This document shows, one piece after another, positions 11,082 to 12,892 of a stretch of 64,000 nucleotides of DNA. Under the pieces are notes generated by a model. That model worked only from the letters and a program-made list of their open reading frames with translations. It had not been told where the DNA came from and ran no database searches. Positions within the stretch are counted from its first letter, which is position 1; each line of letters starts with the position of its first letter. The DNA is from the human T2T-CHM13v2.0 reference genome, Homo sapiens. The stretch is taken from NCBI RefSeq assembly GCF_009914755.1, contig NC_060939.1; one strand, written 5' to 3'. The position numbers and the translations under genes were made by a program.

Positions 11082-11549
11082 CCCCATTCTTATCAATCAG
11101 GCAGGTTTGGTTTCTCGTATTTCATACTTCTGATTGTTCACCAAGCATACATGTTACTTTGCTTACATTTCCATTGCTCTCAGCATTGTGTTCACATCTG
11201 TGGCCACTGGAAGCGTACCCAGGTCCATGGCTGGCCAACTCACACCCCTTTAAAAGTCTATCAGCAGGAAGCCAAGATTAGGCATGAAGGGCTCTCATGT
11301 TCTGGAGAACTGTAGGAACAGACATGCTCATAGACAAACCATCTGAACAACTTCATAAGCCTGTATTGTCACTGAATGTGTTGCACAATGGGATAAGTAA
11401 AAATATCCAAAGCTCCTGCCAATCGTTTTACTTTCTAATTTTTTTTTTTTTTTTGCTTCTTCTCAACTGAAAATAAGGAGAGAACCACATGTGAAATTTT
11501 AAAACCACCTTTTGGAAGAGATAAACACTCTAATTAAAATGAAAGAATT

Positions 11550-11684
11550 AGGTGCAGTGGCTGAAGCCTGTAATCCCAGCACTTTGGGAGGCCCAGGCAG
11601 GCTGATCACTTGAGCCCAGGAGTTCCAGACCAGCCTGGTCAACAAAGTGAGACCCCCGTCTCTACAAAAAAAATGAAAAAATTA
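11550..11684 (+). mobile_element. AluJ left arm (5' half of an inversion-split Alu)
   Basis: Left monomer ending at the linker AAAAATTA; 5' TSD TAAAATGAAAGAATT at 11535-11549. Confidence 0.9.
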
Positions 11685-11685
11685 T

Positions 11686-11795
11686 AATGTCCAGATTATT
11701 GATCTGACCAGAACAGTCCAGGTTCCATGATGCATGCAGTGGTGTCTGTGATCTGACTTTGAGAGACATCTGGCTCTGTTTCAGAAGAACTAAAA
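11686..11795. repeat. Inverted duplication, arm 1 (partner 12785-12892)
   Basis: Reverse complement of 12785-12892 except one substitution and a 2-bp indel. Confidence 0.95.
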
Positions 11796-12088
11796 ATGCA
11801 AGTGCTGTAAAGCTTTAAAGCAGCCCATGTTTATCTCAAGTTGAATTATCCAGGCTTGCTTACAAAGATGAGAGAAAAGTGGCCTGTAAAATGACAGAGA
11901 AAAACATTAAGTGCTGGTCACTGTATCTTACAAAAGTACGTGTGTGGAGAGGACTCCGTGACACGGTAGAAGAAATGCTGGGTTGAGACAACTGAAGTGC
12001 CAGGCCTAACTTTTACCCTGCCATAGCTGTATGAACTTACGAAGGTACTCAACCTCTCTGAGCAAGTTCGTTGTTTTGTTTAAAATTG

Positions 12089-12376
12089 TTTTGAGACAGA
12101 GTCTTGCTCTGTCACCCAGGCTGGAGTGCAGTGGCACAATTTCGGCTCACTGCAACCTCCATCTCCCAGGCTCAAGCAATCCTCCCATCTCAGCCTCCCA
12201 AGTAGTTTAGATTACAGGTGCATGCCACCATGCCCGGCTAATTTTTTTGTATTTTTTGTAGAGACGAGGTTTCGCCAGGTTGCCCAGGCCGATCTTGAAC
12301 TCCTGGGCTCAAGTTATTTGCCTGTTTCAGCCTCCCAAAGGTTTTGTTGGGCCAACGTGAGCCACCATGCCCGGCC
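12089..12376 (-). mobile_element. AluJ/S
   Basis: Full Alu in reverse complement. Confidence 0.88.
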
Positions 12377-12631
12377 AGTTTCTTTATATTAAGAGGGCTA
12401 ATTGAGTTCTTCTGACATGGTAAAGTCCTGAATGGGAGAACACATAAAAGTTATCTCTAAAGTGCTACTCAACCAGATCAACAATTACCTGGCTCACATT
12501 GTTCCCTAAGAATTTTCTGTACATACTCATTGAAATTATGGGAGGGACAAAGGATTTGGCATGTTTTATTTGAATTTATAGAAATACAGTAAACATTTTG
12601 CTGCATAATTATTTTGAATTCTTTCATTTTA

Positions 12632-12784
12632 CTTTATTTTTTGAGACAGGGTTTTGCTTTGTTGCCCAGGCTGGAGTGCAGTGGTGAGATCAGTGCAGTG
12701 GTGAGATCACAGCTCACTGCAGCCTCGACCTCCTGGATTCAAGCCATCTTCCCACCTTAGCCTCTGAAGTAGCTGGAACTATAG
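12632..12784 (-). mobile_element. AluJ right arm (3' half of the inversion-split Alu)
   Basis: Right monomer only; 3' TSD in reverse complement at 12617-12631; 17-bp tandem duplication at 12675-12708. Confidence 0.9.
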
Positions 12785-12892
12785 TTTTAGTTCTTCTGAA
12801 ATAGAGCCAGATGTCTCTCAGTCAGATCACAGACACCACTGCATGCATCATGGAACCTGGACTGTTCTGGTCAGATCAATAATCTGGACATT
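12785..12892. repeat. Inverted duplication, arm 2
   Basis: Reverse complement of 11686-11795. Confidence 0.95.

What the first reader, a model, noticed from the sequence alone, without database searches (positions are those of the whole stretch)
11535..12892. A ~1.1 kb inversion split one Alu into opposite-strand halves and left a ~110 bp near-perfect inverted duplication
Seen: 11686-11795 is the reverse complement of 12785-12892 (1 substitution plus a 2-bp indel). The left copy directly follows a lone Alu LEFT arm (+, 11550-11684), and the right copy directly follows a lone Alu RIGHT arm (-, 12632-12784). The 15-bp sequence before the left arm, TAAAATGAAAGAATT (11535-11549), reappears as an exact reverse complement after the right arm's A tail (12617-12631). 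These are the two target-site duplications of ONE Alu. Inference: ancestral L-R-M-D became L-D(rc)-M(rc)-R(rc)-D, losing ~20 bp of Alu at one junction. The ~98% arm identity implies the event is far younger than the AluJ-age element. The arms could allow re-inversion, or form a long hairpin/dsRNA in RPLP1 read-through RNA, and they sit ~2 kb upstream of the lncRNA promoter.
Basis: partly seen in the sequence, partly recalled or inferred. Interest (0 to 1): 0.8.

Follow-up and report, generated by a model that had tools for sequence, protein, structure and literature searches.

The report
Small inversion that split one Alu
About 1.1 kb of human DNA downstream of RPLP1 was flipped at some point in ape evolution, cutting an old Alu repeat in two and copying 110 bases in mirror image, which is a tidy but ordinary rearrangement scar of a known kind.

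Summary
11686-11795 is the reverse complement of 12785-12892, with 107 of 108 aligned bases identical and one 2-nt gap. This segment has no third copy in the genome.

- **Alu halves:** An Alu left half (+, 11550-11684) abuts one arm. An Alu right half (-, 12632-12784) abuts the other. Together they cover a window-derived Alu consensus from about position 5-12 to 136 and from 158 to 288. They do not overlap, and 21 bases are missing between them.
- **Target-site duplication:** The same exact 15-mer flanks both outer Alu ends in opposite orientation. Chance expectation is 0.02 per window.
- **Same subfamily:** Both halves carry variant states that co-occur in the same intact Alus nearby (n=94, rho 0.48-0.62).

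One event explains all of this: an inversion of 1,099 bp with a 110-bp inverted duplication at the distal break and a 21-bp loss at the proximal break. In structural-variant terms it is a "delINVdup".

Both junctions are blunt. I therefore favour a staggered break with fill-in and end joining over replicative template switching.

Arm divergence puts the event far later than the Alu insertion. The mode is about 5-6 My and the 95% interval is about 1-34 My. No ape genome was available, so the lineage is untested. It is a new member of a known kind, of modest interest.

The parts
11535..11549 (+). Target-site duplication, copy 1 (15 bp), directly 5' of the Alu left half
   Evidence: Exact 15-mer, repeated as an exact reverse complement at 12617-12631. 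Expected 0.02 matches per window at <=1 mismatch.
11550..11684 (+). Alu left half: left monomer plus the A-rich middle linker, consensus positions about 5-12 to 136
   Evidence: Local alignment to the window-derived Alu consensus gives 110 matches, 15 mismatches (5 at consensus CpG sites) and 3 gap columns. MAFFT places its start at position 5.
11685..11685 (.). Junction J1: a single T assignable neither to the Alu nor to the duplicated segment (a filler base or a later substitution)
   Evidence: Junction contexts printed. The alignment ends here.
11686..11795 (-). Left arm: the 110-nt copy of segment D in inverted orientation. Its inner edge keeps D's ancestral neighbour, the spacer M.
   Evidence: 97.3%, E 2.4e-49. 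Only two copies exist in the genome.
11796..12616 (-). Inverted single-copy spacer M (821 bp). It includes an older full-length Alu at 12085-12378 (minus strand), carried along by the inversion.
   Evidence: The non-Alu pieces 11796-12088 and 12379-12631 each match only themselves in the genome. The middle Alu aligns to consensus 1-289 with 47 mismatches.
12617..12631 (-). Target-site duplication, copy 2 (15 bp), directly 3' of the right half's short A tail, now on the opposite strand
   Evidence: Exact reverse complement of 11535-11549.
12632..12784 (-). Alu right half with A tail, consensus positions 158-288. It carries a 17-nt internal tandem duplication at about 12674-12707.
   Evidence: 103 matches, 28 mismatches (11 at CpG sites), 17 gap columns. 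The repeat is printed and listed as family D10.
12785..12892 (+). Right arm: the 108-nt copy of segment D in ancestral orientation, continuous with the unchanged downstream flank. It holds the splice acceptor of the annotated LINC02896 exon 12313-12795.
   Evidence: The downstream flank 12893-13078 is unique in the genome. The minus-strand acceptor context ...tttcag|AAGAAC at 12795/12796 is shown.

Best explanation
An old Alu of an early (J-like) subfamily inserted here and made a 15-bp target-site duplication. Much later, one rearrangement broke the chromosome at two places.

- **Proximal break:** inside the Alu, just after its A-rich middle linker. 21 bp were lost there.
- **Distal break:** about 1.1 kb downstream. 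It was staggered, with the two strands cut 110 bp apart.

Both 110-nt overhangs were filled in, so segment D existed on both ends. The intervening piece (Alu right half, its target-site duplication, spacer M and D) was rejoined in reverse by non-homologous end joining. The result is L | D(rc)-M(rc)-R(rc) | D.

What is shown: the present anatomy and its internal consistency.

What is inferred: the ancestral order, the staggered-break and end-joining route, and the date. The date has a mode of about 5-6 My and lies most probably within the apes.

I take the scar to be selectively neutral. Its side effects are these:
- a near-perfect 108-110-bp inverted repeat with a 989-bp spacer inside LINC02896;
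- a new inverted Alu pair (the left half and the middle Alu);
- an annotated LINC02896 exon (12313-12795) whose body crosses junction J2.

The structural reading, one Alu split by one inversion-duplication whatever the repair route, has confidence of about 0.9. The confidence figure given for this explanation (0.5) is for this particular repair route.
For: **Geometry**
- The arms are 107/108 identical plus one 2-nt gap, with no third copy in the genome.
- The Alu halves are complementary and non-overlapping, with 21 nt missing.
- An exact 15-bp target-site duplication lies at both outer ends in opposite orientation.

**Same element**
- Across 94 near-full Alus from the window plus 200 kb of flanks, sharing of the left half's variant states predicts sharing of the right half's.
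- With unselected non-CpG columns, rho is 0.48, p 1.3e-6, and 0 of 2000 permutations reached the observed value.
- With my selected columns, rho is 0.62 and Fisher's odds ratio is 17.8.
- Non-CpG divergence of the two halves from a local J-like consensus does not differ significantly: 11/119 against 19/127, p 0.18.

**Route**
- Both junctions are blunt. J1 has a 1-nt filler and J2 has 0 nt of microhomology.
- Neither breakpoint lies in a pre-existing inverted repeat, because D, M and the downstream flank are single-copy.
- The pattern matches the staggered-break model of Ranz et al. 2007 (PMC1885836, passages read). [quoted passage not shown] Duplications range from 46 bp to about 1.9 kb.

**Date**
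- D has no CpG.
- One substitution in 108 sites gives P(<=1) of 2e-4 to 1e-10 if the arms were as old as the Alu.
Against: - No outgroup genome could be examined, so the ancestral state is inferred from internal evidence only.
- The end product is identical under replicative template switching and under a two-step path. Blunt junctions favour end joining only weakly.
- A 110-nt overhang requires unwinding of a long stretch. Ranz et al. themselves note this difficulty.
- The Alu's own middle linker (11670-11684) matches the target-site duplication at 14 of 15 positions (family D15). The left half could therefore be misread as a free monomer with its own flanking repeats.
- A first subfamily test on only 23 Alus of the window showed no association (rho 0.05, p 0.83). 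With window Alus alone and unselected columns the association is also not significant (n=31, rho 0.25, p 0.18).
- Gene conversion between the arms would make the date too young.
Confidence: 0.5

Rival explanations
1. The same single event and the same product, made by replication. A fork or a broken end copying through the Alu left half switched template to the opposite strand at the distal edge of D. It copied D, M and the Alu right half backwards, then switched back to the proximal edge of D (FoSTeS/MMBIR-type serial template switching).
For: It yields exactly L | D(rc)-M(rc)-R(rc) | D, with a duplication at one end and a small loss at the other, without needing a 110-nt overhang. Inversions flanked by copy-number changes (delINVdup and related classes) are a recognised class of human complex variants (Collins et al. 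2017, PMC5338099, passages read). That the field usually attributes them to replicative mechanisms is my recollection, not something I read in a call.
Against: No microhomology at either junction: J1 has a 1-nt filler and J2 has 0 nt. Template switching usually needs a few bases of priming homology. This is weak evidence, because the ancestral junction contexts are partly inferred from an Alu consensus.
Confidence: 0.3
2. Two steps. First, a break in the Alu was patched with a 110-bp templated copy of D in inverted orientation and 21 bp were lost, giving L-D(rc)-R-M'-D. Later, homologous recombination between the two inverted arms flipped the 989-bp spacer to the present state.
For: The final sequence would be identical to what is seen, so nothing or 40 excludes it. 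Inverted repeats are known to mediate recurrent human inversions (Aguado et al. 2014, PMC3961182; abstract in the listing and passages).
Against: It needs two rare events where one suffices. Arms of 110 bp are short for homologous exchange in mammals (recalled, not tested). No inversion call lies at this place in the T2T-coordinate table for 51 human genomes: of 28 occurrences of 'chr15', none begins 67281 or 67282. So there is no sign of toggling.
Confidence: 0.08
3. There was no inversion. Two unrelated partial Alu insertions, a free left monomer with its own flanking repeats and a 5'-truncated right half, happen to lie next to an independent inverted duplication.
For: The left half is flanked by a 14/15 direct repeat (11536-11550 against 11670-11684; family D15), as a free left monomer with its own target-site duplication would be.
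Against: - The second copy of that repeat coincides with the Alu's own A-rich linker (consensus positions 122-136), so the likeness is expected to be partly compositional.
- This rival leaves the exact 15/15 reverse-complement copy beside the right half's A tail unexplained (expectation 0.02 per window).
- It also leaves unexplained the exact abutment of both inner Alu ends on the two arms, the complementary coverage and the shared subfamily states.
Confidence: 0.03
4. The arrangement is an assembly error, or a rearrangement private to the CHM13 cell line.
For: No read-level data could be examined here.
Against: - The arms differ by a substitution and an indel, so they are not a collapsed or copied assembly block.
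- A CHM13-private or misassembled inversion should show up as inverted in the other genomes mapped to T2T. No call at 67.281-67.282 Mb appears in the table of Porubsky et al. 2023 (PMC10150506 supplement), nor in the stored and truncated HGSVC3 table.
- RefSeq models run colinearly through the region (hub annotation).
Confidence: 0.03

Closest known systems
Inversions with inverted duplications at their breakpoints, staggered-break model (Ranz et al. 2007, Drosophila melanogaster group; PMC1885836)
   Same: An ancestrally unique sequence is duplicated in inverted orientation at the two ends of the inverted segment, and no repeat pre-exists at the breakpoints. [quoted passage not shown] The 110 bp seen here falls in that range.
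   Different: Here the organism is human and the inversion is far smaller (1.1 kb, against chromosomal inversions). The other breakpoint shows a 21-bp loss. The ancestral order is documented by a split retrotransposon and its target-site duplication rather than by outgroup species.
CNV-flanked complex inversions of human structural-variant catalogues (delINV, dupINV, delINVdup and related classes; Collins et al. 2017, PMC5338099)
   Same: The topology is the same: an inversion with a deletion at one breakpoint and a duplication at the other. This is the class named delINVdup or dupINVdel (passage read).
   Different: Those calls came from long-insert sequencing of living people and are mostly kilobases or more, and often rare. 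This one is small, and no inversion call at its position appears in any of the three callsets searched. It is old enough for its arms to have diverged.
Alu/L1 recombination-mediated inversions between human and chimpanzee (Lee et al. 2008, PMC2603318; only the title and the start of the abstract, in the listings)
   Same: It is a small primate inversion that leaves retrotransposon parts in opposite orientation and rearranges target-site duplications, which is how it can be recognised.
   Different: Those inversions arise by recombination between two inverted copies of a repeat. Here only one Alu is involved, the other breakpoint is in single-copy DNA, and the Alu was broken passively.
L1 twin-priming inversions, said to account for about 85% of human inversions under 2 kb (Porubsky et al. 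preprint 10.1101/2021.12.20.472354; abstract in the listing only)
   Same: The size class is the same (<2 kb), and a small duplication or deletion can sit at the inversion junction (recalled).
   Different: Twin priming inverts part of the newly inserted element itself. Here 821 bp of single-copy genomic DNA and a second, older Alu lie inside the inverted piece, and neither D nor the non-Alu parts of M has any other copy in the genome.

Membership tests
Inversion with breakpoint inverted duplication (staggered-break type / delINVdup) | A segment lies in reverse order relative to the ancestral arrangement | tested here: met
   Internal evidence only. One Alu's halves and its two 15-bp target-site duplications lie on opposite strands, and re-inverting 11686-12784 restores a colinear Alu with direct repeats. 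Not confirmed in an outgroup.
Inversion with breakpoint inverted duplication (staggered-break type / delINVdup) | An inverted duplication of otherwise unique sequence, with one copy just inside and one just outside the inverted segment | tested here: met
   The arms are 11686-11795 and 12785-12892, 107/108 identical plus one gap. There are exactly 2 copies in the 3.1-Gb genome.
Inversion with breakpoint inverted duplication (staggered-break type / delINVdup) | No pre-existing inverted repeat at the two breakpoints (not homologous recombination) | tested here: met
   One break is inside an Alu and the other in single-copy DNA. Junctions have 0-1 nt and no shared homology.
Inversion with breakpoint inverted duplication (staggered-break type / delINVdup) | Outgroup or other haplotypes show the uninverted order with a single copy of the duplicated segment | not testable with these tools
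   No primate genome or human pangenome is held. The supplement of Feuk et al. 2005 was closed.
Alu-Alu recombination-mediated inversion | Two inverted Alu copies at the two breakpoints, producing chimeric elements | tested here: not met
   The distal breakpoint (12784/12785 and 12892/12893) is in single-copy, non-Alu sequence.
L1 twin-priming inversion | The inverted and direct parts both belong to one newly inserted L1 bounded by one target-site duplication | tested here: not met
   The inverted piece holds single-copy DNA and an older Alu. D and the non-Alu parts of M have no other copy in the genome.
Free Alu monomers (FLAM/FRAM), inserted independently | Each monomer has its own flanking direct repeats and no partner half | tested here: not met
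   The left half has a 14/15 flanking repeat (D15). However, that repeat is the Alu linker itself, and the exact 15-mer recurs inverted at the right half's tail. The halves are complementary and share subfamily states.
DNA transposon with terminal inverted repeats | A multi-copy family whose terminal inverted repeats are bounded by a direct target-site duplication | tested here: not met
   The arms have only these 2 copies genome-wide. The outer flanks of the arms share no direct repeat (sequence).

The most novel reading that the evidence does not exclude
The inversion is specific to the human lineage and fixed. It assembled the LINC02896 exon that crosses junction J2. It also gave the long isoform a 108-bp, almost perfectly paired hairpin, which is far more perfect than ordinary inverted-Alu duplexes. 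That would make this lncRNA an unusually strong endogenous substrate for ADAR editing, double-stranded-RNA sensors or Dicer.
Probability: 0.08. Interest if true: 0.55.

Novelty: new member of a known kind. Interest (0 to 1): 0.25.

Why it matters
- **A clean example.** This is a fully self-documenting human case of an inversion formed with a breakpoint duplication. The split Alu and its target-site duplication give the ancestral order without an outgroup, and the two arms act as a built-in clock.
- **Use as data.** Cases like this help calibrate how small complex inversions form (end joining or template switching). They can also serve as lineage markers. The chance that this one post-dates the human-chimpanzee split is about 0.3-0.4 on the arm clock.
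- **Local consequences.** The event created a near-perfect inverted repeat and an inverted Alu pair inside a lncRNA transcription unit 3.4 kb beyond RPLP1. It also made an annotated exon span a rearrangement junction.
- **Limits.** None of this is surprising to a specialist, and no function is indicated.

Tried and rejected
- The supplement list of Feuk et al. 2005 (human-chimpanzee inversion list) was closed, so that list was not seen.

**Analyses that led nowhere**
- The first subfamily test on 23 window Alus was uninformative (rho 0.05, p 0.83). I then enlarged the sample to 94 Alus (30 of 124 BLAST hits were dropped as partial) and rechecked with unselected columns.
- Rfam at gathering thresholds over 9500-13600 found nothing in the arms or the spacer, only the annotated U3 copy.

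**Searches for paralogues**
- No paralogue keeps the ancestral order. D, two pieces of M and the downstream flank each match only this locus.

**Searches for the locus in print or in callsets**
- 'LINC02896': 1 paper, on colorectal-cancer vesicle RNA, title and abstract start only.
- 'RPLP1' + 'inversion' + 'chimpanzee': 2 papers, both unrelated by title.
- Giner-Delgado et al. 2019: no 'chr15', 'RPLP1' or 'KIF23' in the main text or in the 12 of 14 supplementary files searched.
- Porubsky et al. 2023 T2T-coordinate table: 28 occurrences of 'chr15', none starting 67281 or 67282. My recalled GRCh38 prefixes 69459 and 69460 also gave nothing.
- HGSVC3 supplement (one file, truncated in storage): only an unrelated chr7 row.
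- These absences are weak evidence, because small inversions bounded by repeats are easily missed and the files are incomplete.

**Readings considered and rejected**
- DNA transposon with terminal inverted repeats, L1 twin priming, Alu-Alu recombination and independent free monomers (see the membership tests).

**Background reading**
- Potapova et al. 2022 (PMC8755829, abstract) deals with 17-33-nt microinversions and is not comparable in scale.
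Full report
**Observation**

The region was read directly and scanned for repeats. The claimed inverted duplication is real. 11686-11795 (110 nt) and the reverse complement of 12785-12892 (108 nt) differ by one substitution and one 2-nt gap. 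blastn gives 97.27% identity over 110 columns with E 2.4e-49. A search of the whole 3.1-Gb assembly that holds the window finds this segment, here called D, at these two places only. So D is neither a dispersed repeat nor the end of a transposon family.

The 15-mer at 11535-11549 recurs as an exact reverse complement at 12617-12631. At up to one mismatch the window has 3 matches, the third being an unrelated one at 63557-63571. The expectation is 0.02, and 0 of 100 shuffles reached 3.

**The two Alu pieces**

I built a majority consensus (289 nt) from 23 near-full Alus of the window and aligned the pieces to it.
- The left piece (+) covers consensus positions 12-136 in the local alignment, and from position 5 in a MAFFT placement. 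It has 15 mismatches, 5 of them at CpG sites.
- The right piece (reverse complement of 12632-12784) covers positions 158-288. It has 28 mismatches, 11 at CpG sites, and a 17-nt internal tandem duplication.
- The pieces do not overlap. Positions 137-157 (21 nt) are missing.
- The left piece ends in the Alu's A-rich middle linker at 11684. One unassigned T follows, and then the left arm starts.
- The right piece's inner end (12784) touches the first base of the right arm.
- The right piece's short A tail is followed at once by the inverted 15-mer.

**Are they halves of one element?**

A first test on the 23 window Alus showed nothing (rho 0.05, p 0.83). I then fetched 200 kb of flanking genome and collected 94 near-full Alus out of 124 BLAST hits. 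The 30 partial hits were dropped.

The question was whether intact Alus that share the left piece's departures from consensus also share the right piece's.
- With columns I selected (non-CpG, shared by 11-23 of the 94 Alus; a post hoc choice), rho is 0.62 (p 3e-11). A 2x2 split gives 10/5/8/71, odds ratio 17.8, p 9e-6.
- With all non-CpG difference columns unselected, rho is 0.48 (p 1.3e-6), and 0 of 2000 permutations reached it.
- In the flanks alone (n=63), rho is 0.56.
- In the window alone (n=31), rho is 0.25 and is not significant.

So both pieces carry the states of the same minority subfamily. From recall of the published consensus sequences, not from a call, these are AluJ-type states. 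Non-CpG divergence from a consensus of the local J-like group is 11/119 for the left piece and 19/127 for the right, which is not significantly different (p 0.18).

**Reconstruction**

Re-inverting 11686-12784 (1,099 bp) restores a colinear Alu, short by 21 nt, between direct 15-bp repeats, followed by the spacer and then two tandem copies of D. The ancestral order was therefore TSD-L-(21 nt)-R-TSD-M'-D-flank (TSD is the target-site duplication). One event produced TSD-L | D(rc)-M-TSD(rc)-R(rc) | D-flank.

Each arm keeps one ancestral neighbour. The left arm's inner edge is continuous with M. The right arm's outer edge is continuous with the unchanged downstream flank, which is single-copy. 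The non-Alu parts of M are also single-copy. So no paralogue preserves the older order, and the piece is not L1.

**Mechanism**

Two one-step routes give this product.

(a) A staggered distal break, with nicks 110 bp apart. The overhangs are filled in, and the ends are joined to a second break in the Alu that lost 21 bp. This is the model that Ranz et al. proposed for Drosophila inversions. [quoted passage not shown] Duplications span 46 bp to about 1.9 kb (PMC1885836, passages read).

(b) Serial template switching during replication.

The junctions are blunt. J1 reads ATTA|T|AATG with one filler base. J2 reads CTATAG|TTTTAG with no base shared with either ancestral context. That favours end joining, but only weakly, because part of the ancestral context is inferred from a consensus. 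I put route (a) at about 0.5 and route (b) at about 0.3.

A two-step path gives the same sequence and cannot be excluded: a templated inverted patch into the Alu, then a flip of the spacer by recombination between the arms. I put it at about 0.08.

In the vocabulary of human structural-variant catalogues this is a small delINVdup, a named class (Collins et al. 2017, PMC5338099, passage).

**Date**

D contains no CpG. One substitution in 108 sites gives 0.93% pairwise divergence, with an exact Poisson interval of 0.02-5.2%. If the arms had diverged for as long as an element with 5-12% per-lineage divergence, the probability of seeing one difference or fewer is 2e-4 to 1e-10.

Scaled to the pooled non-CpG divergence of the Alu halves (30/246 = 12.2%), the event falls in the last 4% of the Alu's residence, with an interval of 0.1-21%.

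With a flat prior and recalled human-chimpanzee calibrations, the mode is 5-6 My and the 95% interval is about 1.2-34 My. P(after the human-chimpanzee split) is 0.29-0.37. P(within apes, that is after the split from Old World monkeys) is 0.95-0.98. The 2-nt indel was not counted. Gene conversion between the arms would bias all of these dates young.

**Polymorphism and artefact**

The T2T-coordinate inversion table of Porubsky et al. 2023 covers 51 genomes (41 plus 10 new samples, per its abstract). It has 28 occurrences of 'chr15', including calls as small as 1,757 bp, and none begins at 67.281 or 67.282 Mb.
- This argues weakly against a common orientation polymorphism.
- It also argues against a CHM13-private or misassembled inversion, which would appear as inverted in all the other genomes.
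- The stored HGSVC3 table is truncated and had no relevant row.
- The 45-inversion set of Giner-Delgado et al. has no chr15 entry in the 12 of 14 files searched.
- I could not see the human-chimpanzee inversion list of Feuk et al. 2005, which may bear directly on whether the event is lineage-specific.
- Searches for the locus in print found nothing relevant.

**Consequences**

By the hub's annotation the arms lie inside LINC02896 (minus strand), 2-3 kb downstream of its start, not upstream of its promoter.
- The predicted long isoform (exon 9720-13860) contains both arms. Folded as RNA, minus-strand 11660-12920 pairs the arms end to end, with MFE -491.8 kcal/mol. This shows only that they would pair if co-transcribed.
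- The annotated exon 12313-12795 starts at an acceptor inside the right arm (tttcag|AAGAAC). It then crosses junction J2 into the inverted Alu half, so the inversion made that exon's sequence contiguous.
- The twin of that acceptor now also faces the plus strand in the left arm.
- The inversion also placed the left Alu half opposite the older middle Alu: 11582-11684 against 12239-12340, 79.6%.

No function is indicated. I regard the structure as a neutral scar.

**Verdict**

The lineage and the repair route remain open for lack of outgroup sequence. This is a new member of a known kind, of modest interest.

Noticed in passing
window 10021-10229 (-): A full-length match to Rfam U3 snoRNA (RF00012, 122.3 bits against a gathering score of 34, model positions 1-219 of 219). 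It lies inside the terminal exon of LINC02896, about 1.7 kb beyond the RPLP1 3' end. Whether it is an expressed U3 variant or a pseudogene was not examined.
   Followed up: no
window 12674-12707 (-): The Alu right half carries a 17-nt perfect tandem duplication in its 3' part. It appears as a 17-column gap against the consensus (family D10).
   Followed up: partly
window 11536-11550 and 11670-11684: The target-site duplication and the Alu's own A-rich middle linker match at 14 of 15 positions in direct orientation (D15). This is probably a compositional coincidence of two A-rich sequences, but it makes the left half look like a free monomer with its own flanking repeats.
   Followed up: partly
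window 13092-13386 (+): An odd Alu. A plus-strand fragment resembling the 3' end of an Alu right arm (13092-13136; inverted matches I10 and I13) runs, with no A tail, straight into an Alu left arm starting near consensus position 37 (13137 onward; D2). This may be another local rearrangement or an Alu-Alu recombination product.
   Followed up: no
window 12085-12378 (-): A full-length older Alu (47 mismatches to the window consensus) lies inside the inverted segment. Before the inversion it would have lain on the same strand as the split Alu, about 240 bp downstream of it. It now forms an inverted pair with the left half.
   Followed up: partly
window 12313 (-): The low-coordinate end of the annotated exon 12313-12795 has no GT donor after it on the minus strand (the context is ...AAATAAC|TTGAGC). 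It is therefore more likely a transcript 3' end than a splice donor. It lies inside the middle Alu.
   Followed up: no
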